A stretch of 62,206 nucleotides of DNA, from the IMG/VR virus record IMGVR_UViG_3300013094_000050, positions 1-62,206 of that record, one strand, 5' to 3'. Shown in pieces: positions 7,883 to 23,767 of the stretch. The notes under the pieces were generated by a model, which saw only the letters and a list, made by a program, of their open reading frames with translations, was not told the origin of the DNA and ran no database searches. The translations under genes and the position numbers were made by a program. Numbering within the stretch: position 1 is the stretch's first letter; each line of letters begins with the position of its first letter. Source of the DNA: a virus (taxonomy: Duplodnaviria; Caudoviricetes).

Positions 7883-7886
7883 AAAT

Positions 7887-8856: not shown

Positions 8857-8885
8857 AGTATATAACAGTTTTGTTACAAGGTCAA
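8857..8885 (-). promoter_or_regulatory. Sigma70-type promoter TTGACC-17-TATACT for dNMP kinase
   Basis: Near-consensus boxes with 17-nt spacing; preceded by AAATTTC, as in the promoter at 19857-19885. Confidence 0.75.
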
Positions 8886-8891
8886 GAAATT

Positions 8892-9407: not shown

Positions 9408-9435
9408 ATTGTAGTTATACAATATGAAATTTTTC

Positions 9436-10224
9436 TTAGCCAGTTATCAAATAATAACCAGTGCCGCCTGCGGTATTATCCATTATTTCTTTATCTAACT
9501 TTTCAATTTCTTCTTTTGCTTCGGATAACAATGCTGTACCATTCAATGTTATAGGAGACCCAGGTCCTGCAATTGATCCAAATTTACTACGTGCTTGCCC
9601 TAACATTTGTTTTGCTACTGCCAGTGTATAATCTCTTAACCATTGTTTAGCATATATGTCTTGCAACAGCACCCAATCAGGACGGAAATTGTAACTTTGC
9701 ACAAGAATTTGTTCGCCTTGAGCAAACGGACGTTGCAAGATATTCAAAATATGAGTAGTAGGTTTCCATAAAAATTCAATATAACTACCGAACATACGTC
9801 CAACTAATTTTTGATAACCAGCAAATGCATCATAGGTTGCTAATCCACCCATCATACTACCTGACATCAAATAAGTGTTAGTATATGCTAAGTTAAATGG
9901 TTCAAATAAAGTGCCGCCAGCGCCTATTCCGCTTCTTGAACCGATAGCTCTACGAAATACTTGTCGAACTGAAATAACTTCATCGGGCAATCTGTATTCG
10001 TTTTGATCTTGAATTAATTCTAAAAATAAGTAACTTTCTTCGACTGCATTGCTACTACGCTGACGATATTTTGTAAGAGCACGATCCAATGCAACTTCAT
10101 AGTGTTTAGGATCAAGCTCAACGTCTACCATGCCATCTGCAAGCATAGTTTTTACATAGTCAAACACAGCATTACGCTCTATAGTTGCGTTTGACTGGGT
10201 TGTTGCTGGTTGTGAATCGGCCAT
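9436..10224 (-). CDS. gp13: Neck protein (gp13-like)
   Basis: LADGMVDVEL, WLRDYTLAVAK.MLG.ARSKF, TLNG..L..EA motifs. Confidence 0.82.
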   Translation of the reverse strand: MADSQPATTQSNATIERNAVFDYVKTMLADGMVDVELDPKHYEVALDRALTKYRQRSSNAVEESYLFLELIQDQNEYRLPDEVISVRQVFRRAIGSRSGIGAGGTLFEPFNLAYTNTYLMSGSMMGGLATYDAFAGYQKLVGRMFGSYIEFLWKPTTHILNILQRPFAQGEQILVQSYNFRPDWVLLQDIYAKQWLRDYTLAVAKQMLGQARSKFGSIAGPGSPITLNGTALLSEAKEEIEKLDKEIMDNTAGGTGYYLITG

Positions 10225-10242
10225 ATTTTTACTCTCTTACTA

Positions 10243-10262
10243 TATTTAGCTAACGATAAATA
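10243..10262. promoter_or_regulatory. Back-to-back late promoters (GCTAAATA on minus, GATAAATA on plus)
   Basis: TATTTAGC-TAAC-GATAAATA within a 45-bp divergent gap. Confidence 0.7.
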
Positions 10263-10269
10263 TGTTACT

Positions 10270-11748: not shown

Positions 11749-13247
11749 TGGAATGGTTCTATGACGGTCAAGTAAGACGATATATCACACAAACAGTCCG
11801 AGCTATGAGCAACTTTGTTGTTAAGTATGGTGACGGAACTTTACACAGAGTACCTGTTATGTATGGCGATGCTGATAGACAAGTCGCAAGTATTATTCGT
11901 AATAATAGCGAAAATAAAGTTAATAGTGTTCCTCGAATTAGTGTTTATGTTAGCTCATTAGCATTGGATAGAGATCGTACAAGCGATCAAACTTTTGTAG
12001 GTAAAGTTAATATAAGAGAACGCGGAACGTATTTTGATCCTTCAACAGGAGTCGAATCGTACAACCAAATGCAAGGTAAAAACTATACTGTAGAAAGATT
12101 AATGCCAACACCATTTAGTCTAAAAATGAAAATAGACATATGGAGTGCTAACACTGATCAAAAATTACAAATTTTAGAACAAATTTTAGTGTTGTTTAAC
12201 CCTAGTTTAGAATTACAAACTACTGATAACTATATTGATTGGACTAGTCTAAGTGTATTAAATTTAGAAGATATTACATGGGATGGCAAACAAGTGCCAG
12301 TAGGTAATGACACACCTATAAGCATTGCAACATTAACTGTGCAAGCTCCTATATGGATCAGTCCTCCAGTTAAAGTAAAACATCTTGGAGTTATTACAAA
12401 AATTATTACAAGTATGTATGCTAATTCATCATCTAATGGCACTTACATAGAAGGGCTAGGATCGGCGGCAGATCCAATGGCTGCAACTACTACTTTAACT
12501 GATTTGCTAAGTCAGACAGTTACTACTATTAGCGGGTATCAAATACAAGTTTATAACGGGCAAGCAAGATTATTAGGACCGAATGAAAGTGTAGTTCCAG
12601 TAGAACCTACTTTAGATATTACAGTTAAACAAGGTCCCGGAATTAGCTGGTTAGACTTGTTCGAACAATACCCAGGTGAATATGTTGCAGGTTCTAGTCA
12701 AATATATCTAATACAACCTAATGGTAGCTATGTTGTCGGAACTATTGCACTTAATCCGTTAGATTATACAATATTACAAGTTAATTGGAATAAAGATACG
12801 TTAACTTCTAATACGGGGATCGATAGTCAAGGTAGCATCGAGTATAAGGACACAAGTTATATGACTAATCCAACTCAGTATCGATCAAATAGTCCAGGAA
12901 CATTTGATGCTATTATTAATCCATTAACATATAATCCTTATCGTCCTACTGGCAACGAGATTACAGATCAAACAATAATAGTGGGATTAAGATTTTTAAT
13001 AATAGAAGATATAGGAACAGAAGGTATCACAACACCTGTATGGGGATCATTAGTTGCGGTTGCTAATGACATTATAGAATGGACTGGAACACAATGGAAT
13101 GTAGTGTTTAATTCTATTCAAGAAACAACTACGATGGTGTGGCAAACTAATATATACACTGGAGTTCAATACTTGTGGAACGGAGTTTCCTGGGTTAAGA
13201 GCTTTGAAGGTGAATATTCAGCCGCACAATGGAAAATAATACTGTAA
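11748..13247 (+). CDS. gp15: Tail sheath stabilizer/terminator (gp15-like) with a C-terminal extension
   Basis: FYDGQVRRY, VPVMYG, PRIS, MPTPF, QILEQILVLFNP motifs. Confidence 0.82.
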   Translation: MEWFYDGQVRRYITQTVRAMSNFVVKYGDGTLHRVPVMYGDADRQVASIIRNNSENKVNSVPRISVYVSSLALDRDRTSDQTFVGKVNIRERGTYFDPSTGVESYNQMQGKNYTVERLMPTPFSLKMKIDIWSANTDQKLQILEQILVLFNPSLELQTTDNYIDWTSLSVLNLEDITWDGKQVPVGNDTPISIATLTVQAPIWISPPVKVKHLGVITKIITSMYANSSSNGTYIEGLGSAADPMAATTTLTDLLSQTVTTISGYQIQVYNGQARLLGPNESVVPVEPTLDITVKQGPGISWLDLFEQYPGEYVAGSSQIYLIQPNGSYVVGTIALNPLDYTILQVNWNKDTLTSNTGIDSQGSIEYKDTSYMTNPTQYRSNSPGTFDAIINPLTYNPYRPTGNEITDQTIIVGLRFLIIEDIGTEGITTPVWGSLVAVANDIIEWTGTQWNVVFNSIQETTTMVWQTNIYTGVQYLWNGVSWVKSFEGEYSAAQWKIIL

Positions 13248-13678
13248 AAGAACAAATTGTTTGTAGTGGAGCATTATTTTATGCAAAATCTACACGACGT
13301 TTTTTATTATTACAAAAGGCGCACGGCAAACATGAAGGAACTTGGGGGCTAGTAGGCGGAACTACTATTTCTGGAGAAACTCCTTGGCAGGGATTACAGC
13401 GTGAAATTACCGAAGAGATCGGTAGCGTTCCTGATATAATTAAAACAATTCCATTAGAAACATTTGTCAGCAATGACAAAGTATTTAATTTTCACACATA
13501 CTTATGTGTAATCGATAAAGAATTTGTTCCAGAATTAAGTAACGAACATCAAGGTTGGGCGTGGGCAACTATCGATCGTGCTCCTAAACCTTTGCACCAA
13601 GGATTACGTAATAGTTTTGGTAGTAAGACAATACGTAATAAACTTCAAACAGTATTCGATCTAGTAGATCTTATTTGA
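13229..13678 (+). CDS. NUDIX hydrolase
   Basis: WGLVGG....GETPWQGLQREITEEIG Nudix box. Confidence 0.9.
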   Translation: MENNTVKEQIVCSGALFYAKSTRRFLLLQKAHGKHEGTWGLVGGTTISGETPWQGLQREITEEIGSVPDIIKTIPLETFVSNDKVFNFHTYLCVIDKEFVPELSNEHQGWAWATIDRAPKPLHQGLRNSFGSKTIRNKLQTVFDLVDLI

Positions 13679-13711
13679 TATCACAAATACTCGGTGTTCA
13701 CATAATATATT

Positions 13712-13719
13712 GATAAGTA
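13712..13719 (+). promoter_or_regulatory. Late-promoter variant GATAAGTA upstream of the plus-strand accessory genes
   Basis: Same TAAGTA variant as at 1639; about 20 nt before the ATG. Confidence 0.4.
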
Positions 13720-13738
13720 TTGTCAAGGATGGATAACC

Positions 13739-14458
13739 ATGATGTTTTTTAATAAACAAATCAATTTAACGGCATACACATCAGACCCAAGTTATTATGC
13801 TTCTTGTAAACCTGTATATAAATCAAATGTAAAACCTGATTGGATTACTAGAGTAGGTGCATATATAAAAACATGGGATGATAGATCCGGTTTATATAAT
13901 AAAGCAGGAACAGTGGCAACTTGTCCAGGAATTAAAGATTTTTTATCAAAACCTATACAAATTCCAATGTGGGGAGATATAGATATTCGAATTAATCCCG
14001 ACGGAACGTGGACTAGTAATGGAAGGCCAGATTATGATTTACATATAGGACAGCATTACCCTGCACAATACGGAGATGCATATAAAGATAGAGTTGCATT
14101 AAAACTATCATCTCCTTGGCAATTTGTAAGTGAGAGTAAAATAAATTACTTGTTTACGGAATCTCATTATAGTACTTCATATTTTAGAGAATTAGGAATA
14201 TTATTTCCTCCTGGAGTTATTAATTTTAAGTATCAGCACTCTACTAATATTCATTTTAATTGTCCGATCAGATCAGAACCATATGTTATTAGTTTGAAAC
14301 ATGGTATGCCGTTAGTATCTATATTTCCGATGACTGAACGCTCGATCAATTTTGAAGTAAAGAAAATCGGTAGAGATGAATTTAATGAAATTAATCAGCA
14401 TATGCCAAAAATGGTAGTTGGAAGATATTTTAAGCAAGAAGGTTACAAAAATGACTAA
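13739..14458 (+). CDS. Conserved phage hypothetical protein (TCPGI...IPMW...KL.SPW...PGVI type)
   Basis: Enzyme-like composition; located among oxygenase genes; function unknown. Confidence 0.7.
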   Translation: MMFFNKQINLTAYTSDPSYYASCKPVYKSNVKPDWITRVGAYIKTWDDRSGLYNKAGTVATCPGIKDFLSKPIQIPMWGDIDIRINPDGTWTSNGRPDYDLHIGQHYPAQYGDAYKDRVALKLSSPWQFVSESKINYLFTESHYSTSYFRELGILFPPGVINFKYQHSTNIHFNCPIRSEPYVISLKHGMPLVSIFPMTERSINFEVKKIGRDEFNEINQHMPKMVVGRYFKQEGYKND

Positions 14459-15173
14459 AATAGTATATTGGGCTCCTTGGGCATTTCCGGAAGTATATCC
14501 TGAACAATATCTTAGTTATGCCGATCCTGTTTTGTTGAATGAAGATTTACGACCAGATGTTAACAATGAAAATAAAACAGATAATTTTTTCATGTGTCCG
14601 GCATATGTTAATACACTTCGAAATATATTTACAATAAAAAGTCCGTCTAATTGCGATGTAGAATTTACAAATACGCATGTAGTAAATCATTTGCCAGATA
14701 CTATACCATTTAATAAAAATATGTTACAGTTAAAAATGCCTTCAGTTAAGGATTCATTCACTGTAAAATTTAGTGTAGGTTGGATATTTTTTGCGGAGGA
14801 AGAGCTCGAACTCGAGTCACTACCTCCTTATTTGCATAATACAAAACTATCTCAACAAGGTTATTATGTTCCAGGAAGTTACGATATTTCATCATGGTTT
14901 AGACCATTGGAGTATGCGTTTCAACTGCATAAAGGTACAAATCGATTTTCAGTGAGGCAGGATGATCCATTGCTATACGTGAAATTCAAAACAAAAAGTC
15001 CTATTGAACTAAAAAAATTCTATCTTACCGAAACCTTGTACAAATATTCAATGAGTTGTGTTAAATTAAAAATGTACAGAAAAGAAAAAAATCTTAAAAA
15101 TTTATACGGTATATTCCATGAAACTAAGTTTAGAGATATGGTTCTTAAAGAAATTAAAAAAAATTTAGTATAA
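14451..15173 (+). CDS. Conserved phage hypothetical protein (CPAY...PG.YDIS.WFRP type)
   Basis: ATG at 14451 overlaps the upstream stop; CP and PG motifs parallel those of the previous ORF. Confidence 0.7.
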   Translation: MTKIVYWAPWAFPEVYPEQYLSYADPVLLNEDLRPDVNNENKTDNFFMCPAYVNTLRNIFTIKSPSNCDVEFTNTHVVNHLPDTIPFNKNMLQLKMPSVKDSFTVKFSVGWIFFAEEELELESLPPYLHNTKLSQQGYYVPGSYDISSWFRPLEYAFQLHKGTNRFSVRQDDPLLYVKFKTKSPIELKKFYLTETLYKYSMSCVKLKMYRKEKNLKNLYGIFHETKFRDMVLKEIKKNLV

Positions 15174-15183
15174 GGAAAATATT

Positions 15184-15786
15184 ATGGAATTTTTTGATTT
15201 GTTTCCTACAACAATTTTTAAGGGGTATAATAAAGTTTTAGCAGAATCATTATTACCTCTTTGTAACAAATATACAAGTGAAGAGACTATAAAAAATTGC
15301 CTCGACTGTGACAATTTCCCGTCAACATTGTCTGCAGGGTATTTGGAATTTCAAGTTAATAACAACGAACCATTAGTCACAGAAGCCTTACAATATATAA
15401 GTGATCACTGCTTAAAGCCATTTTTAGCGCATCGGGGTATAGGGTTGCCAGGCCCTATTCGACCTTTTGGATTTTTTAGTTCTATGGAAAAAGGCGGATA
15501 TCTAAGAAAACATCACCACCTTGATTGTTATTTTTCTGGAATTGTATATTTAGAAGTAGGCGAAGATGTTCCTGAGCTAATTTTACATCATCCAGGCAAT
15601 CATATTAAATTTTTACACTATCCTTCGGACCACCAACACATAGATAATTATTTGAATAGGACTTGCAATGTCTTCAAAATTAAGCCTGAAACTGGTATGA
15701 TATTACTATGGGATGCGTCGATTGAGCACGAATTAAACCTTAAGACAAACGATAATCCGAGAAAAACTTTTGTATTTAATTTATGA
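15184..15786 (+). CDS. Putative 2OG-Fe(II) oxygenase (TIGR02466-like)
   Basis: LFPT start, HHH..CYFSGIVYL, P..G..LLW.ASIEH, R..FVFN. Confidence 0.82.
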   Translation: MEFFDLFPTTIFKGYNKVLAESLLPLCNKYTSEETIKNCLDCDNFPSTLSAGYLEFQVNNNEPLVTEALQYISDHCLKPFLAHRGIGLPGPIRPFGFFSSMEKGGYLRKHHHLDCYFSGIVYLEVGEDVPELILHHPGNHIKFLHYPSDHQHIDNYLNRTCNVFKIKPETGMILLWDASIEHELNLKTNDNPRKTFVFNL

Positions 15787-16406
15787 ATGATATTATTATA
15801 ATCGATGATGTAGTTGATCGACATTATCAAAATCAAATAGAACAACACACATTAGCTGATCATAATGCCACTCCTTGGTTTTTCCAATCGGATCTAACAT
15901 TTCCTGATATATATTTCGATGATTTATTACAAAAAGATCCTACATCTAAAATAGTAAAACGACCTGGTTTTAGTCATATGGTGTACGATACTAATTTACA
16001 TATAGGATCTTCATATAATTTTTATTCGCCATTGTTATATTCAGCTTGCAATGGTATTTGTAGCATTAAGAATCTTACACAAATAAGAATGTTTCTTTCA
16101 ATACCGGTACATGGGGATATTCATAAGATAGATAACCCGCATGTTGATAAATTCGAACCTCACATGGTCGGATTATACTATATAAATGATTCCGACGGGG
16201 ATACTGTTATTTTTGATAAACAATTTAACTATGGTATTGACGAGCCATGGCCATGCAAAACACCTGCAACTGAAATTCCTATTCTAAAAACAATCACTCC
16301 TAAAAAAGGAAGATTTGTATTATTCAATGGAAATAGATATCATGCAAGTTCACAGCCCTTAAAATCTCCAAGGGCTGTGATTAATTTTAATTTTCTATCT
16401 GTTTGA
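15783..16406 (+). CDS. 2OG-Fe(II) oxygenase
   Basis: PHVD, LYYINDSDGDT, PKKGR.VLFNG..YHAS, RAVINFN. Confidence 0.85.
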   Translation: MNDIIIIDDVVDRHYQNQIEQHTLADHNATPWFFQSDLTFPDIYFDDLLQKDPTSKIVKRPGFSHMVYDTNLHIGSSYNFYSPLLYSACNGICSIKNLTQIRMFLSIPVHGDIHKIDNPHVDKFEPHMVGLYYINDSDGDTVIFDKQFNYGIDEPWPCKTPATEIPILKTITPKKGRFVLFNGNRYHASSQPLKSPRAVINFNFLSV

Positions 16407-18207
16407 TATCATTATTAATTTTTGATAATAGTTTGCCATATTCAGGCAAATACAAATAATTCATCTCGCTTTTTGCAATAGTATCCGCAGCATCTTCCAA
16501 TGTTTCGACTAACGGATCTCCGCCTAAATTAAAGCTAGTATTGAATAATACAGGAACACCTGTTTTTTCATAAAATGCATTAATCAAACTATAAAAATGT
16601 TTGTTTTGTTCGTTAGTTACAGTTTGTATACGACAAGTTCCGTCTACATGTATAATGCTAGGAATTTTTTCTGCAACACCAGGTTGACAATTTACAGCGT
16701 ACATCATGTAAGGACTGTCCTTCATACCACGTAAATCAAACCATTCATGGACATATTCTTGCATTATAGTACCTGCAAATGGTCTAAAATATTCACGATG
16801 TTTTACACTATTAACAAAATCTTTACCATCTTCGTACATCGGATTAAACAAAATACTACGATTACCTAATGCTCGTGGGCCGTTTTCACTTCGTCCTTGA
16901 AACATTGTAACGATATTTTTATCTAATAATAAAGAAACAATATCTTCATATTCTACATTACTTACTGCTAAATTATATTCAGATGCAATGTCATTTATAT
17001 CATCTGTAGAATAATTATATTCGAATCCTAAATATAATCCGTCTTTCGAATAATCAATTTTTTGCTCTTTAGATACGTCCATGTATATTAACATTGCAGC
17101 ACCCATTGCTGTACCGGCGTCATTACTAATAGGTTCTACATAAATTTCGATACCTTCGTCTCTCAAATGCTCTAAATAATAATAATTAGCTACGCAATTC
17201 AATCCATAACCTCCACTAATAACTACTTTATTATGTCCGGTCATTTCTACAGCTTTGCGAATTAAAGCCAATACTTGATCTTGTGTCTGAGTTTGGACAG
17301 CATATGCTAAATCTCGTCTATTATCAAGCAATGTTATATCAGTGGCATCATGCTCGTCTAAGTATGGAAACAAAGTGCTATTAATCAATGCACCGTTTGG
17401 ATATGTAGGTATGACTATATTTCTATTAGCAACCGGAAATGCTCCATTTTTGTTGAATAGTTCTGGAAATTTATCAGTTTCTTTACCGTATGGAAATAAT
17501 CCCATAGTTTTTCCTGCTTCGATAGATGGCCACCCACAATATTGTGTAACTGCTTCATAAACTTTAACAATTCCTGCAGTTTCGGATACTACAAGGTAGT
17601 GTGAGTCAGACTCTGGTTCATTATATCTTTCACTTGGAAATTTATCTAATACAGTAACAGGAGATGGACCACTTACTGCAAGATGTTTATAAATGGTTTT
17701 GAAATTAAACGGGTAAGAGCAATCAAAAATACTTTCAGTTTCAAACGCTGTAGTTGGAGCACCACTTGCTGTATTTAATTGAACAAAAGTTCCTGCACCA
17801 TCAACTACTAATGCTGCCGCACTATCAAAACCTGATCTATAAAATGCACAAGCGGCATGTAACTTATGATGAATGTTACTTAAATCGATGACTTGAGGGT
17901 GGGGACCAGGTTCGGGTTGTCGTCTTGCAATCAACCCTAATTTTCTTGCAAGACCTGTGTATATATCTTCGTAAGTGAAGTCTATCTTGCCTGCGGTTTC
18001 TTGAAGAGATTGAGTATGTGCAATTGCAATAAAATCTAGCTTATCTGTGTATTCTTTAATTTTTAGCATTGTTGCCAATGGGCCGCCGTCATATTTTTGT
18101 CTGCTAAGACGTTCTTCTTCTATATTAAAAATTACTTTGCCATTTTTTAATAGACACACTCCGCCGTTATGTCCTCTGGTAATTCCTGCAATCCAAATAT
18201 CTTTCAT
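16387..18207 (-). CDS. O-carbamoyltransferase (NodU/CmcH/TobZ family)
   Basis: EEERLSRQK, HH.LHA, VVDGAG, GKTMGL.PYG, SGG.GLNCVAN, E.GPRALGNRS, RE.FRPFA, HVDGTCRIQTV, NTSFN..G.P. Confidence 0.95.
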   Translation of the reverse strand: MKDIWIAGITRGHNGGVCLLKNGKVIFNIEEERLSRQKYDGGPLATMLKIKEYTDKLDFIAIAHTQSLQETAGKIDFTYEDIYTGLARKLGLIARRQPEPGPHPQVIDLSNIHHKLHAACAFYRSGFDSAAALVVDGAGTFVQLNTASGAPTTAFETESIFDCSYPFNFKTIYKHLAVSGPSPVTVLDKFPSERYNEPESDSHYLVVSETAGIVKVYEAVTQYCGWPSIEAGKTMGLFPYGKETDKFPELFNKNGAFPVANRNIVIPTYPNGALINSTLFPYLDEHDATDITLLDNRRDLAYAVQTQTQDQVLALIRKAVEMTGHNKVVISGGYGLNCVANYYYLEHLRDEGIEIYVEPISNDAGTAMGAAMLIYMDVSKEQKIDYSKDGLYLGFEYNYSTDDINDIASEYNLAVSNVEYEDIVSLLLDKNIVTMFQGRSENGPRALGNRSILFNPMYEDGKDFVNSVKHREYFRPFAGTIMQEYVHEWFDLRGMKDSPYMMYAVNCQPGVAEKIPSIIHVDGTCRIQTVTNEQNKHFYSLINAFYEKTGVPVLFNTSFNLGGDPLVETLEDAADTIAKSEMNYLYLPEYGKLLSKINNDIKQIEN

Positions 18208-18216
18208 ACTGTTCCT

Positions 18217-18906
18217 TTATATTTTAGTTTTAACGTAATGTGTACTGCGTTCAATGGGCCATAACCCATTAATTGGTTTTATTTTTGCAAAAAATACTTG
18301 TGTCAATCTTGAATTTGTTGGATCTGTACCGAACATTTTACTTTCTCTATGACAATATTCTCCTGGATATACTACCAATCGATTAAAAACATTACCAACA
18401 TCTATTGTTTTATTAAATCGATTATTATGTTCATCCCTTGTTTTTCTGTAAACATCTATATCAACATCTTTATCATTATAGAAATTCATTTTTTGCTGGA
18501 GTTCAAATCCTTGAGGATGCGGTTTCAAATGTTTAATTTTTGGATCGGGATCGTTATCTTCATATATAGAAGTTCCTGCATTTGTTGGAGCTCCAGGTGT
18601 TAGATACACAACTCCGGCAAAAGAAACACCAGTATCTACATGTACCCAACCTTCTTCATATTTTTCTGGTATTAGTTGAAATTCAATAAGAAAATCTGAT
18701 TCAATCGTGTCAGTTTTGAGGTTAAAAAATAGATTCAATATTTTTTGTTCAAATGTTGAATGCATTTCTGGATTAATAGTACTTAACGGATCTGTTCTAG
18801 TTCCAGGCCATGGCATATTTTTTCTAGAAAATGTTTGTGTCAACGCATACTCTCTAACTGACATCGGATCTTCATAGAAATTATCAACAATTGTAATTGG
18901 TATCAT
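18217..18906 (-). CDS. 2OG-Fe(II) oxygenase (DUF6445-like)
   Basis: IVDNFY.DP..VR..AL, WPG.RT, WVHVD, AGVVYL.P, NVFNRLV.Y....H, RLTQVFF. Confidence 0.85.
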   Translation of the reverse strand: MIPITIVDNFYEDPMSVREYALTQTFSRKNMPWPGTRTDPLSTINPEMHSTFEQKILNLFFNLKTDTIESDFLIEFQLIPEKYEEGWVHVDTGVSFAGVVYLTPGAPTNAGTSIYEDNDPDPKIKHLKPHPQGFELQQKMNFYNDKDVDIDVYRKTRDEHNNRFNKTIDVGNVFNRLVVYPGEYCHRESKMFGTDPTNSRLTQVFFAKIKPINGLWPIERSTHYVKTKI

Positions 18907-19826
18907 GTTTTTTTCTTAATGTCTACTCTAATTTTTTCAATAATATCTTTGACTTCTTTATCGGTAAAATCCATGCAAGAGTCATTATAACGATTAGCTA
19001 AATCTCCGTCCATACCGTTTTCAGCAAATCGTATTGGAAAATATTTAATGTCAACTGGTGTTTTTTGCAAAATTTGAAAATGTTTACTATAACTGATATT
19101 TTCAGCAAATGTACTACCTAATATTACAGTTCCAGGTTTGTTAAACGCATATGCCATATGTTGACCTACACTATCACATCCAACAAAATAATCGGACGCT
19201 TCGATGATACCTGCCCATGCTCGCAGTGGTGCTTGTATTTTGAAAGTGATATCATCTACATCATTATTCTCTCCAAAGAAAATTAAATTATAATCTTTGG
19301 CTAATGATTGAATAATTTTAAGATATACTGATTTTGTTAAAGACCGGCTTAAAGGGTCGATCAACTCATTTGTTGGCACAGATTGAATAGATCGTCCAAA
19401 CGGTTGAATGACAATTGTTTTTTGTTTTTTCATTGCTTTAGCCGCGTTTGCAACTGCATCTAAAGCATGAATCTCTTCCTGTTTAGTTAGAAAGATTTTT
19501 GGTCTTTCTAGATCACTATGATCGGTAGTTCCGTTAATTAAAAAATCAAAAGATTCTGTTAAACTTCTTTTTTGATTATAATACCCATGTTCTCTGTAGG
19601 GTTCCGGAGTAATGACTATATTTGGTTTAATTATATTTTCAAATACATCTCGACCGTCTAATCCGTACGAGATATTTTGCAAATCTTTATTTCCAGCAAA
19701 CCAATCTATACCGCCTTCACACAGTATATAAAAATCGTTGCCATTTATTTTAAGATATTTTTGTAAGGCAGGTAAGGCGCATAAAACCCGACCGGCTCCT
19801 CCGCCGATTGCAAATACTTTTTTCAT
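18903..19826 (-). CDS. GT-B glycosyltransferase, GT9 (heptosyltransferase)-like
   Basis: GGGAGRVLCALPAL N-terminus, VIQPFG, FVGCDSVGQHMAYAFNKPGTVILGST. Confidence 0.8.
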   Translation of the reverse strand: MKKVFAIGGGAGRVLCALPALQKYLKINGNDFYILCEGGIDWFAGNKDLQNISYGLDGRDVFENIIKPNIVITPEPYREHGYYNQKRSLTESFDFLINGTTDHSDLERPKIFLTKQEEIHALDAVANAAKAMKKQKTIVIQPFGRSIQSVPTNELIDPLSRSLTKSVYLKIIQSLAKDYNLIFFGENNDVDDITFKIQAPLRAWAGIIEASDYFVGCDSVGQHMAYAFNKPGTVILGSTFAENISYSKHFQILQKTPVDIKYFPIRFAENGMDGDLANRYNDSCMDFTDKEVKDIIEKIRVDIKKKT

Positions 19827-19836
19827 AATTTCCTTA

Positions 19837-19880
19837 AGTTGGTAAATCTATACTACATTATATATGTAGATTTACCAACT
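19837..19880. repeat. Perfect 14-bp inverted repeat AGTTGGTAAATCTA / TAGATTTACCAACT
   Basis: Arms at 19837-19850 and 19867-19880; the 16-nt spacer contains the -10 box. Confidence 0.9.
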
Positions 19881-19885
19881 GTCAA
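19857..19885 (-). promoter_or_regulatory. Perfect sigma70 promoter TTGACA-17-TATAAT driving the GT-oxygenase-carbamoyltransferase operon
   Basis: Exact consensus boxes and spacing; AAGGA RBS downstream. Confidence 0.85.
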
Positions 19886-19890
19886 GAAAT

Positions 19891-20616
19891 TTATTGACTT
19901 AAATCGTGTTGAATTTTAGCAATAACAGCATTCAAATCGTCAATGACTGTTTGAATATGCGTTTCGTATTCGGCAATCGTACCATGTGGCAATGGAGACT
20001 GAGAGCATACAGATTCCCCACCTTCCGATGTGGAATAAGTAAATGGAGGATTAAATGTAATTACACCGTTATCTAGCGTAGCATTAACTAACGCCGATTT
20101 TAATGTTGTCATATGCGTGAGTCGTTTTTGGAATTTCAAAAGATTCTCAGGGTTTGAAGAAATATTAGCCACTTGTGTGACACCAGTTAATCCATCATTA
20201 CCTGCTAATTCAACATCACCTAAATATGAATGATGTATCGGCTTTGGAGAGAAGTTACCAATTCTTTGTTTTTCTTCAATAGTTGCAGGTTTTGACCTAA
20301 ATGGATTAGGATCCTCTTGTAGTGCTCCGATTCTTTCTCTTTCTGCTTCACGAGCTGCCATCTCTGCTTGTACCGCAGCAACAAAGTCAGCTGTTTCTTT
20401 TGCATGATATGCTTCAATAATAGCAGCAATAGGATCATATGCTGGATGATCTCCAGGTTTAATTACTTGGCCATTAAACCAATAATTGCCGGCTACTACT
20501 GGTTGATCAGTAGATTGCCAGTTATTACTCGGTGTTAAACTTACTTCCTCTGCATTGTCAGTGACAGCTATAATTATTTCTAAATTATATTTGTCTGTAT
20601 GTGTTCTAAAAAACAT
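19891..20616 (-). CDS. Hypothetical protein, possible fibre assembly/chaperone
   Basis: ATG at 20616 with GAGGGA RBS; directly downstream of the Cys-rich fibre gene. Confidence 0.65.
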   Translation of the reverse strand: MFFRTHTDKYNLEIIIAVTDNAEEVSLTPSNNWQSTDQPVVAGNYWFNGQVIKPGDHPAYDPIAAIIEAYHAKETADFVAAVQAEMAAREAERERIGALQEDPNPFRSKPATIEEKQRIGNFSPKPIHHSYLGDVELAGNDGLTGVTQVANISSNPENLLKFQKRLTHMTTLKSALVNATLDNGVITFNPPFTYSTSEGGESVCSQSPLPHGTIAEYETHIQTVIDDLNAVIAKIQHDLSQ

Positions 20617-20627
20617 TATTTTTTCCC

Positions 20628-22202
20628 TCAATACACTACAATTACTGCGCCGTTACCGCCGGCTGTGTTTAATCTGTTACCACCACCGCCGTAACCTGCT
20701 GCCAAAGTTGTTGCACCATATCCAAATTTGAAATCATTAATGTTTATACACCCTGGAGCTTTTAATGTTGATAATGGTATTACACCCGGAACAACTGGTT
20801 TGTAGAGTGTTTCGTCTTTGTAATAACCGATGTTATAACAATTAATTTGGACTGGTTGCCCAGTACCTGTTCCAGGTGCTCCTCCTGTTCCACTGTTATA
20901 TGCATAACATGTGCATCCACAATTATATCCGAACACAAAATAAAATGCATCACATGGCCAATATTGATAACATACTAAGTTTGTACTGCCGCCGCTACCA
21001 CCACTACTAGTAGAGTAAGTAGGTGTACATAATGCTGGAGTATTTTGTTTGTAAATTTGTACTTCACTTTGTCCATTATTACCATTTGCACCGCTATTAC
21101 CGGCTTCTGCACCTACTCCTACTGGTAACGAAGTTGTTTGCCAGCCTTGATTTTGTCCCCAATCTCCACCATTGCCACCTATACAGCAACGCATTGCATT
21201 TCCTGCAAACGCATATACATCGCCTACATAGCAATTATAAACAGTTAACGTAGCACTACTTCCGCTACTTAAACATAAGTATGTACCGCATAAGCAATAA
21301 GGAACATAATAATTCAAACAATTTTGCCATGTACCGTTAGAGCATTGGGATCCAAATGTAGTATGATAAGTTAAATGACAATAACAATTCAAAGAAGATC
21401 CATAATTTGGACTCCAGCAATATCCGCAACAAGAATTAGCATAACTCCATGGATGTAATACAGTGTTGATACACATACACGTATATCTATTACCGCCAAA
21501 ACCATAATCGTAACTGTTACCAGTCCATGATTGATTTGTACAAGAGCATAAGTAGCCGCCGCCGCTGCCTGTAATTGTTGTAGTTGGTTGGATTGTAACA
21601 CATCCATCAACGCAAGATTCACAATTAAAATAAGGAATAAGAACTCCACGCCCACCGGTTCTATTAACATCACCACCAGTTGCTGTTCCTCCAAAATTCC
21701 AATATCCGCTAATACAATTTACATAACCACATACAGGTAATGCAAACCCCATACTTACCGGATTATCACTTGCATTGCTACGTGCGGTAGAATTATTAAC
21801 ACATGCCCAGCTATATGATACTTCAGTTGCGTTATTGGCAACAACATTATATGAACCTATTGAAACTGAACTTGCGCTACTACCTCCAATTGCACCGACG
21901 GTAATTGTCATTGTTGCGCCTGGTTGCAAATCAACCATTGTTTTTTCAGCATAGCCGCCACCGGCGCCAGTTAGTTGTCCTGCAAAATTAAAACAATAAT
22001 TACAAACTGGAGTAACAACTCCTGAACAACAACCAATACCTTGCATACATACACAAGTGTTTCTAAAACATGATCCTGCGCCAATTACATATACTTTTGC
22101 AACATTAACGCCTGAGGGAACTGTCCAGGTAGTTGAGTTTGTGAATACTTGCGCATTCGAAAAACTCGGATTTCCTGCTGTTGAATTAACAAATCTTCCC
22201 AT
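20628..22202 (-). CDS. Cys/Gly-rich tail-fibre tip protein (glycine-rich domain type)
   Basis: VFT.STTWTVPSGV...V.VIGAG...GAGGGYAEK N-terminus and GG.GAVIV.Y C-terminus; about 38 Cys in 524 aa. Confidence 0.72.
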   Translation of the reverse strand: MGRFVNSTAGNPSFSNAQVFTNSTTWTVPSGVNVAKVYVIGAGSCFRNTCVCMQGIGCCSGVVTPVCNYCFNFAGQLTGAGGGYAEKTMVDLQPGATMTITVGAIGGSSASSVSIGSYNVVANNATEVSYSWACVNNSTARSNASDNPVSMGFALPVCGYVNCISGYWNFGGTATGGDVNRTGGRGVLIPYFNCESCVDGCVTIQPTTTITGSGGGYLCSCTNQSWTGNSYDYGFGGNRYTCMCINTVLHPWSYANSCCGYCWSPNYGSSLNCYCHLTYHTTFGSQCSNGTWQNCLNYYVPYCLCGTYLCLSSGSSATLTVYNCYVGDVYAFAGNAMRCCIGGNGGDWGQNQGWQTTSLPVGVGAEAGNSGANGNNGQSEVQIYKQNTPALCTPTYSTSSGGSGGSTNLVCYQYWPCDAFYFVFGYNCGCTCYAYNSGTGGAPGTGTGQPVQINCYNIGYYKDETLYKPVVPGVIPLSTLKAPGCININDFKFGYGATTLAAGYGGGGNRLNTAGGNGAVIVVY

Positions 22203-22234
22203 TAATAACTCCTTGACTTTTTATTATCTATGTA

Positions 22235-22242
22235 TATTTAGC
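22235..22242 (-). promoter_or_regulatory. Late promoter GCTAAATA for the Cys-rich gene
   Basis: TAAATA core; AAGGAG RBS downstream. Confidence 0.62.
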
Positions 22243-22243
22243 A

Positions 22244-22912
22244 TTATGCTGTACTATCGATACACCATGCGACTGCATTTACACCTGTACCAGTTGCTGT
22301 GGCGCCTAATGAATAATTATTACTTAATACAAGTCCAGTTCTGGAAAGTGTACCGTATGCTGGTAATGAAAACGCATATTCTATATAGTCGCTAGTCGAC
22401 GGCGCAGTAGGTGTTGTTGAAATAAACAAATAAATCGTAACAGCAGATGATGTAGAATTTGTTAATTGCACAGTTGTAGTTGCCATTCTTCCAGATGCGG
22501 GACCACTCCAAATACTTGTTCCGCTACCTAATGTTTGTGAAGTAAGAGCAACTGCACCGACTCTGCCAATTGCTGTAGAACCATTACCACCTTCTAATCC
22601 GTGTACTGTGAAAGAAAAATTTCCAGTAGAAGCCCAGCCTAAAAGTTGATATCCGTATGCCAATACAATCACTTTTTGTTCAAACACTCCGCCAGGTGGT
22701 AGTGGATTTTGATATAGTAAATAATCGGACGATGCAGGAGTTGTTCCAGCTGAAGTCAAACTCATTGCCAATGATATAGTTGCTGTGGCTGCTCCTCTAT
22801 TAACTACAGAAACAGTTAACACTTGTGCAGTTGCACTAGAAGCTGGGCCTGCGGCAATTTGTGTCCAAGTTGTTGCTGATAAAGATGCGTGATATTGTAT
22901 TCCTGATGCCAT
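22244..22912 (-). CDS. Small virion protein with two tandem ~110-aa beta domains
   Basis: Both halves resemble 23407..23745 (V...N.....TI.L...DY..Y...L..G..E..G.VL). Confidence 0.75.
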   Translation of the reverse strand: MASGIQYHASLSATTWTQIAAGPASSATAQVLTVSVVNRGAATATISLAMSLTSAGTTPASSDYLLYQNPLPPGGVFEQKVIVLAYGYQLLGWASTGNFSFTVHGLEGGNGSTAIGRVGAVALTSQTLGSGTSIWSGPASGRMATTTVQLTNSTSSAVTIYLFISTTPTAPSTSDYIEYAFSLPAYGTLSRTGLVLSNNYSLGATATGTGVNAVAWCIDSTA

Positions 22913-22928
22913 GTCGTATTAATCCTTT

Positions 22929-23381
22929 TTATGATCCGTAGTACATACCAAATGCACTTACTTTGGTGGCATTATCAACATACGATTTATTAGTTATATC
23001 AGTAGAATTTGCAGGAGCATTAGTAACTTGCCCACTAGTAATTGTTGCACCCGTAAGTGTTACATGTCCGCCACTACTAACTGCTGGGATATAATTTGTA
23101 CCATCATTTTGTAATACTACTAAATCTCCAGAAGATAATGTAAAATTAACAGAAGCTGTTGATGTAAAAATTCCAGTCGGAGTGCTTAGTGTTACAGTAT
23201 TACTACTTGCATTATAAAAAGTTTGTGCTGTACCTGCATAACTTGCTGGTGTTGCTAGTGTAATAGTAATACCAGCAGATGCTCCTGCTGGGATTTCTGT
23301 AAATAGCCCCGAAGACGGTGATCCGGTGCCTACCGAAGTCGAAACGGTTGTGCTAGATAATACTGTATTATAACGTGCCAT
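22929..23381 (-). CDS. Short fibre-like virion protein
   Basis: ITLATPASYAG.AQTFYN and AP.NSTDITNKSYVD fibre motifs. Confidence 0.7.
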   Translation of the reverse strand: MARYNTVLSSTTVSTSVGTGSPSSGLFTEIPAGASAGITITLATPASYAGTAQTFYNASSNTVTLSTPTGIFTSTASVNFTLSSGDLVVLQNDGTNYIPAVSSGGHVTLTGATITSGQVTNAPANSTDITNKSYVDNATKVSAFGMYYGS

Positions 23382-23400
23382 AATATTCCTGCTGTTGTCT

Positions 23401-23408
23401 TATTTATC
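23401..23408 (-). promoter_or_regulatory. Late promoter GATAAATA
   Basis: TAAATA core 20 nt upstream of the ATG at 23381; AGGA RBS. Confidence 0.6.
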
Positions 23409-23745
23409 AACTTGTAGATGTCTCAATTCCGTATATATTTACGTTTACCGCACTTCCGTTGCTGCTAACAACAAAGTTAGATGTAGCTTGCGCAACTAAC
23501 CCGGTACGTTCAAATACTCCATACCCAATTATTGTAGTTTGATATTCAAATGCCTCACTTGCAACAGGCGAGCCTGTTGTACTTGTACCTATATACAAAC
23601 GAATAGCTACAGGTGTAGATGCTGTATTTGTAAATGATATATTATAAACTCCATAATACCCTACTGGTACAGTATACAATAATGTATACGATGTAAGGCT
23701 TGCTGCAGTTAATTGATTCGTTGCTTTTATTCCTGATCCTGCCAT
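23407..23745 (-). CDS. Small virion beta-sandwich protein
   Basis: TLLYTVP...ISFTN...IRLYI...FERTGLV...VN.YG.E; paralogs elsewhere in the window. Confidence 0.75.
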   Translation of the reverse strand: MAGSGIKATNQLTAASLTSYTLLYTVPVGYYGVYNISFTNTASTPVAIRLYIGTSTTGSPVASEAFEYQTTIIGYGVFERTGLVAQATSNFVVSSNGSAVNVNIYGIETSTS

Positions 23746-23767
23746 TTTATTTCTCCGTTTTTATTGT

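What the first reader, a model, noticed from the sequence alone, without database searches (positions are those of the whole stretch)
13739..22202. Tailoring-enzyme cassette beside a hyper-Cys-rich fibre: candidate virion post-translational modification system
Seen: a GT9-like glycosyltransferase, a NodU/CmcH carbamoyltransferase, three distinct 2OG-Fe(II) oxygenases and two unknown enzyme-like ORFs sit inside the tail gene cluster, one gene away from a fibre protein with about 7% Cys. Established: NodU/TobZ enzymes O-carbamoylate sugar or hydroxymethyl hydroxyls, 2OG oxygenases hydroxylate, and GT-B enzymes glycosylate. Inference: a hydroxylate/glycosylate/carbamoylate pathway decorates the fibre, possibly on Cys, Ser or Thr, like a RiPP-style cluster acting on a virion protein. 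Alternative: DNA base hypermodification, since phage 5hmC carbamoyltransferases are known, although no dCMP hydroxymethylase or C5-methylase is visible in this window.
Basis: partly seen in the sequence, partly recalled or inferred. Interest (0 to 1): 0.85.

Follow-up and report, generated by a model that had tools for sequence, protein, structure and literature searches.

The report
Phage fibre sugar-tailoring gene module
A giant freshwater phage carries a conserved pair of sugar-adding and carbamoyl-adding enzymes next to an unusually cysteine- and glycine-rich tail-fibre protein; the enzymes probably decorate that fibre, and the same uncharacterised module occurs in well-known ocean cyanophages.

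Summary
Window 13739-22202 encodes a GT9-fold glycosyltransferase, a NodU/TobZ-type O-carbamoyltransferase (CT) and three proteins with the HxD...H oxygenase triad. It also encodes two DUF6065-like unknowns, a fast-evolving 241-aa protein and a 524-aa fibre-type protein with 38 Cys (7.3%).

- CT directly follows the GT in 79 of 80 IMG/VR loci.
- Of 102 Cys-rich ORFs (>=4.5% Cys) in those loci, 99 lie upstream of the GT on the same strand.
- Cyanophages P-SSM2, S-SSM7 and S-CAM1 share the arrangement, there followed by NDP-heptose synthesis genes.
- One contig binned as an archaeon carries only Cys/Gly-rich protein, GT, CT and a HAD phosphatase, between housekeeping genes.

Best reading (about 0.5): the enzymes glycosylate the virion fibre protein, probably with heptose, and carbamoylate the sugar.

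DNA hypermodification is weakened: no ThyA-family hydroxymethylase was found in 5 of 5 related genomes. Host LPS remodelling is weakened too: the catalytic Asp of the LPS heptosyltransferases is Arg here, and the GT family is almost absent from cellular genomes.

Nothing shows the modification directly. The GT-CT unit has its own sigma-70-type promoter, and the donor sugar in this phage is unknown.

The parts
13739..14458 (+). Unknown 239-aa protein (unkA), a conserved companion of the GT-CT pair
   Evidence: phrog_7084, E 1.4e-18. No Pfam or NCBIfam hit. Protein atlas lead to DUF6065 clusters. Orthologues follow CT in the closest loci and lie between CT and the heptose genes in L012/13/15/18; unkA or unkB is present in 14 of 80 loci.
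14451..15173 (+). Unknown 240-aa protein (unkB), probably a distant paralogue of unkA; likely start is the ATG at 14451
   Evidence: phrog_17480, E 9.8e-16. The atlas holds the sequence from residue 12 and points to DUF6065. hhalign of unkA against unkB: 148 columns, E 0.0027, weak. A Pfam scan of 13 family members gave no DUF6065 hit.
15184..15786 (+). 2OG-Fe(II) oxygenase, PF13759 type
   Evidence: Pfam 2OG-FeII_Oxy_5, E 6e-14, 52.7 bits against a cut-off of 27. TIGR02466, E 8.7e-9. HxD...H visible in the sequence.
15783..16406 (+). 2OG-Fe(II) oxygenase-like protein; its phrog_274 family is labelled 'DNA endonuclease V' in cyanophage records
   Evidence: phrog_274, E 1.3e-31; phrog_61 (2OG oxygenase), E 1.8e-5. 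Pfam 2OG-FeII_Oxy_3, E 5.5e-4, below the cut-off. H-V-D ... H triad in the sequence. Homologous to S-SSM7 'denV', which lies in the same cluster.
16387..18207 (-). NodU/CmcH/TobZ-family O-carbamoyltransferase (CT), 606 aa
   Evidence: Pfam N and C domains. phrog_1601, E 3.8e-166. 58-60% identical to the S-SSM7 and Sf-FS3 CTs. PDB relatives 7xb6, GdmN, TobZ.
18217..18906 (-). DUF6445 protein with an HxD...H triad, inserted between GT and CT
   Evidence: Pfam DUF6445, E 3.3e-14. Triad H89-x-D91...H186. The S-SSM7 orthologue directly upstream of the GT hits DUF6445 (E 8e-9) and 2OG-FeII_Oxy_3 (E 6.6e-4).
18903..19826 (-). GT9-fold glycosyltransferase (P0002), 307 aa; Arg stands where LPS heptosyltransferases have the catalytic Asp
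   Evidence: Model pLDDT 91. Z 22.0 to 3tov, 20.8 to TibC, 19.6 to WaaF, 18.6 to WaaC. hhalign to E. coli WaaC/F/Q/U: probability 91%, E 9.5e-7, over the nucleotide-sugar domain. D218/H223 align with WaaC D261/H266, and R13 with D13. 2099 homologues.
19857..19885 (-). Sigma-70-type promoter TTGACA-17-TATAAT in the 64-bp gap upstream of the GT, overlapping a palindrome
   Evidence: The only 12/12 match in 7500-24500. Sequence read. In the 150 nt upstream of the GT, 38 of 81 related loci have >=10/12 and 20 have >=11/12.
19891..20616 (-). Fast-evolving, nearly Cys-free 241-aa protein (P3) between the fibre protein and the GT; possible fibre partner or chaperone
   Evidence: No Pfam, PHROG or NCBIfam hit. 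Only one homologue, 98% identical, in the large database. 25-27% identity to proteins at the same position in L007/8/9/17. A Cys-poor protein of 170-350 aa occupies this position in most lineages.
20628..22202 (-). Cys/Gly-rich fibre-type protein (P0001), 524 aa: glycine-rich-domain core with Cys-rich insertions
   Evidence: 38 Cys, 7.3%; Gly 15.6%. 75 homologues, all 4.1-7.8% Cys. The core (residues 12-200, 360-385, 460-524) is modelled confidently; the inserts are below pLDDT 50. Z 11.2 and 10.9 to the cyanophage Pam3 fibre, 9.2 to the Bxb1 tail tip, 6-8.9 to the ALK/LTK glycine-rich domain.
22244..23745 (-). Three small fibre-module proteins (222, 150 and 112 aa) that precede the Cys-rich protein
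   Evidence: phrog_11338 'tail fiber', E 7.6e-6, for 22244-22912. 22244-22912 and 23407-23745 are homologous to PSSM2_302 and SXBG_228, which follow the long fibre gene in P-SSM2 and S-CAM1. A 105-111-aa orthologue precedes the Cys-rich gene in related loci.

Best explanation
The region is the enzyme half of a conserved phage module that post-translationally decorates a virion fibre protein with a tailored sugar.

Proposed steps, all inferred:
1. The Cys/Gly-rich glycine-rich-domain protein (20628-22202) is made in the cytoplasm as a tail-fibre or tail-tip component.
2. The soluble GT9-fold enzyme (18903-19826) transfers a sugar to it from a nucleotide sugar, most likely an NDP-heptose.
3. The TobZ/NodU-type enzyme (16387-18207) O-carbamoylates a hydroxyl of that sugar, using carbamoyl phosphate and ATP.
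4. The HxD...H oxygenases and DUF6065-like proteins add lineage-specific tailoring, such as hydroxylation of protein or sugar.

Shown here: gene identities, protein folds, and the tight, widely conserved linkage of Cys-rich protein, GT and CT.

Inferred: the substrate, the sugar, the modified residue and the order of steps.
For: 1. GT-CT is a unit.
- CT starts 912-1149 bp after the GT start in 79 of 80 IMG/VR loci.
- GT and CT distances co-vary: r 0.83, Mantel 0 of 999 permutations.

2. Positional linkage to Cys/Gly-rich proteins.
- Of 1130 ORFs, 102 have >=4.5% Cys. 99 of these are upstream on the GT strand and 3 are downstream, with 588 kb and 626 kb examined on the two sides.
- 61 of 71 loci with >=3 kb of upstream sequence have such an ORF, at a median gap of 772 bp.
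- The same holds in S-SSM7 (three proteins, 10.6-11.5% Cys), P-SSM2 (two, 10.1%) and S-CAM1 (three, 8.4-11.6%), and in 6 of 6 MAG contigs.

3. Independent context.
- In a 34-kb contig binned as an archaeon, the island is a Cys/Gly-rich protein with an N-terminal hydrophobic segment, then GT, CT and a HAD phosphatase.
- It lies between enolase/Cbf5 and EndoIII/MCM/L10e genes. Neither LPS nor phage DNA is available there as a substrate.

4. The Cys-rich protein is fibre-like: Z 11.2 (167 residues aligned, 26% identity) to the solved cyanophage Pam3 fibre, and Z 9.2 to the Bxb1 tail tip.

5. The GT's best-matching solved structures include TibC, a protein O-heptosyltransferase (Foldseek top hit E 1.1e-9; Z 20.8). 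It keeps the nucleotide-sugar motif D-S-x-G-x-H, aligned to WaaC D261/H266.

6. NDP-heptose genes follow CT in 20 of 80 loci (27 of 80 have any of the five cluster genes) and in the three cyanophages. Cyanobacterial LPS lacks heptose and Kdo (PMC4515613, abstract as shown in the search listing).

7. Other tailoring genes fill the space around GT-CT in other lineages: three 2OG oxygenases in L053, two sulfotransferases in L061.

8. Distant GT homologues in 78-kb Vibrio and Aeromonas phages also sit among virion structural genes.

9. Carbamoyl-heptose has a precedent: WapO carbamoylates HepII of the Pseudomonas core (PMC8005017, passages).
Against: - No direct evidence that any protein is glycosylated.
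- The loci share ancestry (73 distinct GT/CT pairs). The counts are therefore not independent events, and conserved synteny of a fibre module could produce them.
- 10 of 71 loci with enough upstream sequence lack a Cys-rich ORF there. S-SSM5 has a related CT, without the GT, beside a Cys-poor fibre protein (0.5% Cys, 33.5% Gly).
- The GT-CT unit has its own consensus sigma-70-type promoter. That suggests expression separate from, and possibly earlier than, the fibre genes.
- The window holds no heptose-synthesis gene, and gmhA was found in 0 of 5 large related contigs, one of them 100% complete. The donor sugar in this phage is therefore unknown.
- The residue that is the catalytic Asp in WaaC and TibC is Arg in all 9 phage proteins aligned. 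The enzyme may work differently, act on another acceptor, or not be a transferase.
- The archaeal island is a single MAG contig: 1 of 201 genomes of that order has a strong GT match.
Confidence: 0.5

Rival explanations
1. Virion glycosylation, but of a different virion protein. The GT-CT pair modifies the giant fibres, the fast-evolving P3-like protein or another structural protein. The Cys/Gly-rich protein is only a syntenic neighbour.
For: - GT homologues in Vibrio K479 and Aeromonas HJ05 lie between large virion proteins that are not strongly Cys-rich (0.5-4.1% Cys).
- 10 of 71 loci lack a Cys-rich ORF upstream.
- A Cys-poor protein of 170-350 aa is almost always interleaved between the Cys-rich gene and the GT.
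Against: - The archaeal-binned island keeps the Cys/Gly-rich protein directly upstream of the GT (180-bp gap), with no P3-like gene between them and no giant fibres.
- The orientation bias of 99 of 102 Cys-rich ORFs is very strong.
Confidence: 0.17
2. Host envelope remodelling. The enzymes are auxiliary 'LPS genes' that add carbamoyl-heptose to host LPS or another surface glycan during infection, for example to block superinfection.
For: - Solved GT9 members are mostly LPS heptosyltransferases.
- Pseudomonas core HepII is carbamoylated by WapO, encoded beside heptosyltransferase genes (PMC8005017, passages).
- Sullivan et al. 2010 list the adjacent heptose genes among cyanophage 'LPS genes' of unknown function (PMC3037559, passages).
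- A consensus sigma-70-type promoter fits early, host-directed expression.
Against: - Cyanobacterial LPS lacks heptose and Kdo, the acceptor of WaaC-type enzymes (PMC4515613, abstract in listing).
- The Asp invariant in E. coli WaaC/F/Q/U is Arg in all phage members aligned, and the N-domain is shorter.
- The family is nearly absent from cellular genomes: 6 loci in a scan of one genome for each of 185,579 species, five of them on phage-like contigs.
- The archaeal-binned island has no LPS to modify.
- This reading does not explain the constant neighbourhood of Cys/Gly-rich fibre genes.
Confidence: 0.15
3. DNA hypermodification. The GT and CT decorate a hydroxylated base in phage DNA, for example heptosyl- or carbamoyl-5hmC, to evade restriction.
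For: - A phage carbamoyltransferase converts 5hmC to 5-carbamoyloxymethylcytosine (PMC8670742, section 12 read).
- A phage gene cluster makes mono- and di-heptosyl-5hmC (bioRxiv 10.1101/2023.12.21.572611, passages).
- An early-type promoter would suit a DNA-modifying enzyme.
- A dNMP kinase homologue lies nearby at 8143-8901.
Against: - The known hydroxyl handles (5hmC, 5hmU, 5hoC) are made by ThyA homologues (PMC8670742; PMC13326640 abstract). PF00303 was found in 0 of 5 related genomes (S-SSM7, P-SSM2, S-CAM1, a 372-kb complete genome and a 280-kb contig), while the control rang in 10 of 14 reference genomes. It was also not found in the window.
- The Tet_JBP search was also negative but is uninformative, because the control was silent.
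- The known heptosyl-DNA transferase is described as T4 beta-GT-like, not GT9-like.
- The archaeal island and the fibre linkage are unexplained by this reading.
- The window covers only 17% of its genome, so absence there is weak evidence.
Confidence: 0.07

Closest known systems
BAHT protein O-heptosyltransferases (TibC, AAH) acting on autotransporter adhesins
   Same: GT9-like GT-B catalytic domain: Foldseek top hit E 1.1e-9; Z 20.8, rmsd 2.9 A, 264 residues aligned. Both are soluble cytoplasmic enzymes encoded next to a repetitive beta-rich surface protein, which in TibC's case is the substrate (PMC4358343, passages).
   Different: The phage enzyme lacks the N-terminal beta-barrel: its model aligns only from TibC residue 97. 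It has no four-Cys iron finger; it holds 4 Cys in all, none in CxxC pairs. Arg stands near the position of catalytic Asp-110 (residue role from PMC4358343). Sequence identity is 11-12%.
LPS heptosyltransferases WaaC/WaaF/WaaQ (CAZy GT9) with the core carbamoyltransferase WapO of Pseudomonas
   Same: Same fold (Z 18.6-19.6). Conserved D-[ST]-x-G-x-H nucleotide-sugar motif. A heptosyltransferase and a NodU-family carbamoyltransferase share one gene cluster and yield 7-O-carbamoyl-heptose (PMC8005017, passages).
   Different: No Pfam Glyco_transf_9 hit. The invariant G-D of the E. coli enzymes is G-R here, and about 40 residues of the N-domain are missing. The family is viral, not part of bacterial core-OS clusters. 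The neighbours are fibre genes, not waa genes.
Virus-encoded virion glycosylation systems: chlorovirus capsid glycans and mimivirus fibrils (review PMC9614988, seen only as a search listing); mycobacteriophage capsid and tail glycosylation (recalled, not from a call)
   Same: A virus carries its own glycosyltransferases, and sometimes sugar-nucleotide synthesis genes, to decorate its own structural proteins.
   Different: Those systems use other GT families and other sugars. No GT9-fold enzyme, heptose or carbamoylation, and no Cys/Gly-rich glycine-rich-domain substrate, turned up in my searches.
Phage 5hmC carbamoyltransferase / DNA sugar hypermodification clusters
   Same: Same carbamoyltransferase superfamily. 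Phage clusters that combine sugar activation, a GT-B enzyme and tailoring are known.
   Different: Those are paired with a thymidylate-synthase homologue or with MT+TET. None was found in 5 of 5 genomes carrying this module. Here the partner is a GT9-fold enzyme beside fibre genes.
Glycine-rich domain of ALK/LTK receptors and phage fibres (Pam3 fibre, Bxb1 tail tip)
   Same: The confident core of P0001 aligns to them: Z 11.2/10.9 for Pam3, 9.2 for Bxb1, 6-8.9 for ALK/LTK.
   Different: P0001 and its relatives carry long Cys-rich insertions (residues 202-352 and 387-452) that are modelled poorly. Only 10 of the 38 Cys positions are conserved in >=80% of 40 homologues.

Membership tests
CAZy GT9 / Pfam Glyco_transf_9 heptosyltransferases | GT-B fold closest to GT9 members | tested here: met
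   Z 22.0 (3tov), 19.6 (WaaF) and 18.6 (WaaC), against <=11.5 for all other GT-B rows.
CAZy GT9 / Pfam Glyco_transf_9 heptosyltransferases | Match to the family's sequence model | tested here: not met
   No Pfam hit at E<=5. NCBIfam heptosyltransferase III: 20.2 bits against a cut-off of 170. A profile search of PDB sequences found no GT9 chain. Only hhalign against four E. coli enzymes reaches it: probability 91%, C-domain only.
CAZy GT9 / Pfam Glyco_transf_9 heptosyltransferases | C-domain nucleotide-sugar motif (WaaC D261...H266) | tested here: met
   P0002 D218 and H223 are invariant in 34 family members and align with WaaC D261/H266.
CAZy GT9 / Pfam Glyco_transf_9 heptosyltransferases | N-terminal Gly-Asp with the catalytic Asp (WaaC D13) | tested here: not met
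   G12 aligns in all 12 sequences. The next residue is D in the 3 E. coli enzymes aligned (and in all 4, including WaaU), but R in all 9 phage proteins. R13 is invariant in 34 members. The catalytic role of D13 is recalled, and is supported indirectly by PMC4358343.
CAZy GT9 / Pfam Glyco_transf_9 heptosyltransferases | NDP-heptose as donor | not testable with these tools
   Context only. Heptose kinase/nucleotidyltransferase genes are found in 20 of 80 loci and in 3 cyanophages. None is in the window, and gmhA is found in 0 of 5 large contigs.
BAHT family (TibC/AAH) | N-terminal beta-barrel (TibC residues 1-97) | tested here: not met
   Model residues 1-307 align to TibC 97-395. The protein has no residues before the catalytic domain. 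Domain limits from PMC4358343.
BAHT family (TibC/AAH) | Four-Cys iron finger needed for the dodecamer | tested here: not met
   P0002 has 4 Cys (positions 16, 36, 216, 284), not arranged as CxxC pairs. Only C16 and C284 are nearly invariant.
BAHT family (TibC/AAH) | Catalytic Asp-110 | tested here: inconclusive
   The offset puts TibC 110 near model residue 13-14, which is Arg-Val. No residue-level alignment to TibC was available.
NodU/CmcH/TobZ O-carbamoyltransferases | Kae1-like N domain plus YrdC-like C domain | tested here: met
   Carbam_trans_N, E 5.3e-24, and Carbam_trans_C, E 3.3e-58, both above cut-off. PDB hits 7xb6 (E 1.4e-56), GdmN and TobZ.
Phage 5hmC carbamoyltransferase system | Co-occurrence with a thymidylate-synthase-family hydroxymethylase | tested here: not met
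   PF00303 found in 0 of 5 related genomes, with the control positive in 10 of 14. It was not found in the window, but the window is only 17% of its genome.
2OG-Fe(II) oxygenase superfamily | HxD/E...H iron triad and a family model match | tested here: met
   15184-15786: PF13759 above cut-off, with the triad. For 15783-16406 and 18217-18906 the triad is visible, but the 2OG models are sub-threshold or indirect.
Glycine-rich-domain fibre proteins (Pam3 fibre type) | Fold of the glycine-rich core | tested here: met
   Z 11.2, rmsd 4.3 A, 167 aligned, 26% identity (7ypx_A). Z 10.9, rmsd 3.3 A, 156 aligned, 28% identity (7yfw_a). The Foldseek E-values are weak, 3.7e-3 to 1e-2.

The most novel reading that the evidence does not exclude
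The cysteines themselves are the acceptors. On this reading a GT9-fold enzyme that has swapped its catalytic Asp for Arg S-glycosylates the Cys-rich inserts of a fibre protein with heptose, which is then carbamoylated. That would be a new kind of virion post-translational modification, widespread in aquatic giant phages and T4-like cyanophages, that tunes adsorption or shields the fibre.
Probability: 0.1. Interest if true: 0.9.

Novelty: new variant of a known kind. Interest (0 to 1): 0.7.

Why it matters
The GT family is large: 2099 homologues, mostly from aquatic metagenomes. It occurs in model cyanophages (P-SSM2, S-SSM7, S-CAM1) whose neighbouring 'LPS genes' have had no assigned role since 2010 (PMC3037559, passages).

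If the enzymes decorate fibre proteins, several things follow:
- Phage-encoded glycosylation would become a factor in host recognition, particle stability and resistance to grazing or proteolysis in lakes and oceans.
- It would explain why cyanophages import a heptose pathway that their hosts lack.
- It would add protein-linked carbamoyl-heptose to known glycobiology.

The hypothesis can be tested directly in phages that are already in culture.

Tried and rejected
- Nucleotide search of the region against 50,697 phage records: no match.
- tblastn of the Cys-rich protein against the same records: no match. An S-CAM1 Cys-rich protein found only S-CAM1 and S-CAM3. These proteins diverge too fast for a census by sequence.
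- Profile search of PDB sequences with the GT family: only chance hits.
- hhalign among the unkA, unkB, oxygenase, DUF6445 and P3 families: nothing convincing.
- Pfam scan of 13 unkA/unkB relatives: no DUF6065 hit. The DUF6065 link rests on the protein atlas alone.
- T4-type late promoter TATAAATA: 5 sites in the window against 14.3 expected, none in the region.
- Tet_JBP search: negative, but the control was silent too.
- Complex prediction of the fibre protein with the GT: no verdict, score 0.00, controls not run.
- The look-up of sequencing runs: no RNA holder listed. Expression timing could not be examined, and read laying was not used.
- Homology search for P3: one near-identical protein only.
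- Supplementary tables were closed. Table S8 and File S1 of PMC3037559 (virion proteomes of S-SM1, S-PM2 and Syn9) could not be seen and may bear on whether orthologues are virion proteins.
S-RIM44's split CT lies beside ThyX, not ThyA.

Full report
**What is there**

The window is a 62-kb fragment of a viral record; CheckV estimates it at 17% of a genome. Its tail sheath is closest to those of jumbo phages such as PA5oct and Atu_ph07. Its DNA is held by lake-water metagenomes from many studies.

Neck and tail-completion genes lie at 9436-13247. A run of fibre genes, including ORFs of 4936, 3268, 1999 and 1442 aa, lies at 22244-62110. Between them sit two convergent gene sets.

On the + strand:
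- NUDIX hydrolase, 13229-13678.
- Two unknown proteins, 13739-14458 and 14451-15173.
- Two oxygenase-like proteins, 15184-15786 and 15783-16406.

On the - strand, in order of transcription:
- The Cys-rich protein P0001, 20628-22202.
- A 241-aa protein P3, 19891-20616.
- A 64-bp gap.
- The glycosyltransferase (GT), 18903-19826.
- A DUF6445 protein, 18217-18906.
- The carbamoyltransferase (CT), 16387-18207.

**Checking the gene identities**

- The CT is unambiguous: both Pfam domains match, and TobZ, GdmN and 7xb6 are its solved relatives.
- The GT has no Pfam hit. Its family is large, 2099 homologues.
- Its model is confident, pLDDT 91. GT9 structures stand far above all other GT-B folds: Z 22.0 for 3tov, 20.8 for TibC, 19.6 for WaaF and 18.6 for WaaC, with the next row at 11.5.
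- An hhalign comparison with E. coli WaaC/F/Q/U aligns the nucleotide-sugar domain at probability 91%. P0002 D218 and H223 fall on WaaC D261 and H266.
- In a global alignment the invariant Gly-12 is followed by Asp in the E. coli enzymes but by Arg in all nine phage proteins. This Asp is the catalytic base in TibC (Asp-110) and, by superposition, in WaaC (PMC4358343, passages).
- The phage enzyme also lacks TibC's N-terminal beta-barrel and its iron finger.
- It is therefore GT9-like in fold and donor site, but not a regular member of either known branch.
- One oxygenase is firm (PF13759). The other two carry an HxD...H triad with only sub-threshold or indirect family support.
- The two unknowns are conserved families with a DUF6065 lead from the protein atlas only.

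**The Cys-rich protein**

- It has 38 Cys in 524 aa and 15.6% Gly. K, R, D and E are each under 2% of residues.
- All 75 detectable homologues have 4.1-7.8% Cys. Only 10 of the 38 Cys positions are conserved in at least 80% of 40 aligned homologues.
- The model is confident for a core made of residues 12-200, 360-385 and 460-524. It is poor for the Cys-rich inserts.
- The core matches the solved fibre of cyanophage Pam3 (Z 11.2 and 10.9, 26-28% identity). It also matches the Bxb1 tail tip (Z 9.2) and the ALK/LTK glycine-rich domain (Z 6-8.9).
- Calling it a fibre-type virion protein is reasonable. No proteome confirms it.

**The linkage test**

I took 80 IMG/VR loci holding a GT homologue (44-66% identity).
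- CT follows directly in 79 of them.
- Among 1130 non-overlapping ORFs of at least 100 aa, the Cys content is bimodal.
- 102 ORFs have at least 4.5% Cys; their mean Gly is 15%, against 6.9% for the other ORFs.
- 99 of the 102 lie upstream of the GT on its strand and 3 lie downstream. Nearly equal sequence was examined on the two sides.
- 61 of 71 loci with at least 3 kb of upstream sequence have such an ORF, at a median distance of 772 bp, about one small gene.
- Ten loci lack one: L038, L043, L052, L056, L058, L059, L063, L076, L081 and L083.

The loci are relatives, not independent draws; there are 73 distinct GT/CT pairs. Even so, the linkage survives large changes in the number of Cys-rich genes (1-3), in their length (about 230-1460 aa), and in the genes around them.

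- Cultured cyanophages show the same order. S-SSM7, P-SSM2 and S-CAM1 have two or three proteins of 8-12% Cys, a Cys-poor protein, GT and CT. These are followed by a heptose kinase/nucleotidyltransferase, GmhA, a cupin and an epimerase, the whole set bracketed by fibre genes.
- In a second lineage, three 2OG oxygenases lie between the Cys-rich genes and the GT. In a third, two sulfotransferases flank GT-CT.

**An independent context**

A scan of one genome for each of 185,579 prokaryote species found six loci, all on MAG contigs. All six have a Cys-rich ORF, then GT, then CT. Five look like phage contigs.

The sixth is a 34-kb contig binned as a Woesearchaeota archaeon. There a 591-aa protein (8.8% Cys, 19.8% Gly) with an N-terminal hydrophobic segment is followed by GT, CT and a HAD phosphatase.
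- The four genes lie between phosphoglycerate mutase-like, enolase and Cbf5 genes on one side and EndoIII, MCM, L10e and CBS genes on the other.
- Only this genome, of 201 in its order, has a strong GT match.
- Its CT nests within the viral CTs.
- It therefore looks like a recent acquisition of just these genes.

If the contig is sound, the transferred unit is protein plus enzymes, in a cell with neither LPS nor phage DNA to modify. This is the strongest single argument that the Cys/Gly-rich protein is the substrate. It rests on one contig.

**Rivals**

DNA hypermodification had to be taken seriously. A phage CT makes 5-carbamoyloxymethylcytosine (PMC8670742, section 12), and heptosyl-5hmC exists (bioRxiv 10.1101/2023.12.21.572611, passages).
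- The known hydroxyl handles come from ThyA homologues (PMC13326640 abstract).
- None was found in S-SSM7, P-SSM2, S-CAM1, a complete 372-kb relative or a 280-kb relative, while the control search worked. None is in the window.

Host LPS remodelling fits the canonical role of GT9 and the Pseudomonas WapO precedent. Against it:
- Cyanobacterial LPS lacks heptose and Kdo.
- The catalytic Asp is replaced by Arg.
- The family is essentially viral.
- This reading does not explain the fibre linkage.

A third rival keeps virion glycosylation but changes the target protein. Distant GT homologues in Vibrio and Aeromonas phages sit among large virion genes, with no CT and no strongly Cys-rich neighbour.

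**What argues for caution**

- The only perfect sigma-70 consensus promoter in 17 kb sits in the gap before the GT.
- Strong matches recur there in related loci: at least 10/12 in 38 of 81, and at least 11/12 in 20 of 81. The background rate is about ten such sites in the 17-kb stretch counted on both strands. Many of those loci also show an ATAAATA late-type motif there.
- The enzymes are therefore a transcription unit of their own, possibly expressed early.
- The window has no heptose-synthesis gene. gmhA was not found in five large related contigs. Only 20 of 80 loci have heptose kinase/nucleotidyltransferase genes nearby. Heptose is the best guess for the sugar, not a finding.
- A related CT in S-SSM5 lies, without the GT, beside a Cys-poor fibre protein with 33.5% Gly.

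**Verdict**

- I found no description of this module in the literature searches I ran. Sullivan et al. 2010 left the adjacent genes as 'LPS genes' of unknown function.
- I rate it a new variant of a known kind (virus-encoded virion glycosylation). It is testable at once in cultured cyanophages.

Noticed in passing
window 23768-38578, 38629-48435, 49179-55178, 55321-59649 (all - strand): Four very large ORFs (4936, 3268, 1999 and 1442 aa) in a row. The N-terminus of the 4936-aa protein resembles that of the P-SSM2 and S-CAM1 'tail fiber protein' (PSSM2_301, SXBG_229) as printed. They are probably giant fibres and were not analysed.
   Followed up: no
window 19830-19890: The consensus promoter upstream of the GT overlaps an imperfect palindrome (GGTAAATCTA...TAGATTTACC). 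It could be an operator or a transcript-end hairpin.
   Followed up: partly
window 7887-8213 (+): A 108-aa ORF with 9 Cys (8.3%) and a weak HNH_3 hit (E 0.006), lying between the tail sheath gene and the dNMP kinase gene and overlapping the latter. Possibly a small HNH/zinc-finger homing endonuclease.
   Followed up: no
window 8892-9422 (-): A second member of phrog_274 ('DNA endonuclease V' in phage records), E 8.9e-48, with a weak 2OG-FeII_Oxy_3 hit. It lies outside the cassette, next to the neck gene. The 'denV' label of this cyanophage family looks like a misnomer for a 2OG oxygenase-like protein.
   Followed up: partly
L087 (MAG contig binned as Woesearchaeota), 6046-11317: An island of Cys/Gly-rich exported-looking protein, GT, CT and HAD phosphatase, embedded among archaeal housekeeping genes. 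It is unique among 201 genomes of its order.
   Followed up: partly
L083 (372-kb IMG/VR record with terminal repeats, 100% complete): This close relative in its neck genes has the GT but no CT. The ORFs just upstream read like a P-loop kinase and other small enzymes, and an 856-aa protein with 17% Gly lies further upstream. They were not scanned against Pfam.
   Followed up: no
L092 (Synechococcus phage S-SSM5), 1486-7742: A related CT, without the GT9-fold gene, lies convergent to a fibre cluster that ends in a protein with 33.5% Gly and 0.5% Cys. Beside it are a 2OG oxygenase and a gene annotated 'leprecan-like' (prolyl hydroxylase-like).
   Followed up: partly
L094 (Pelagibacter phage HTVC008M), 1122-9511: A distant CT (27% identity) sits in a different glycan-type cluster: glycosyltransferase, methyltransferase, UDP-glucose dehydrogenase, 'NAD synthetase' and a 2OG oxygenase.
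   Followed up: no
window 16387-23800: Lake-water and freshwater metagenomes from many studies hold this stretch; 9 runs hold at least half of its sampled words. The cultured phages that share the module are marine cyanophages.
   Followed up: no
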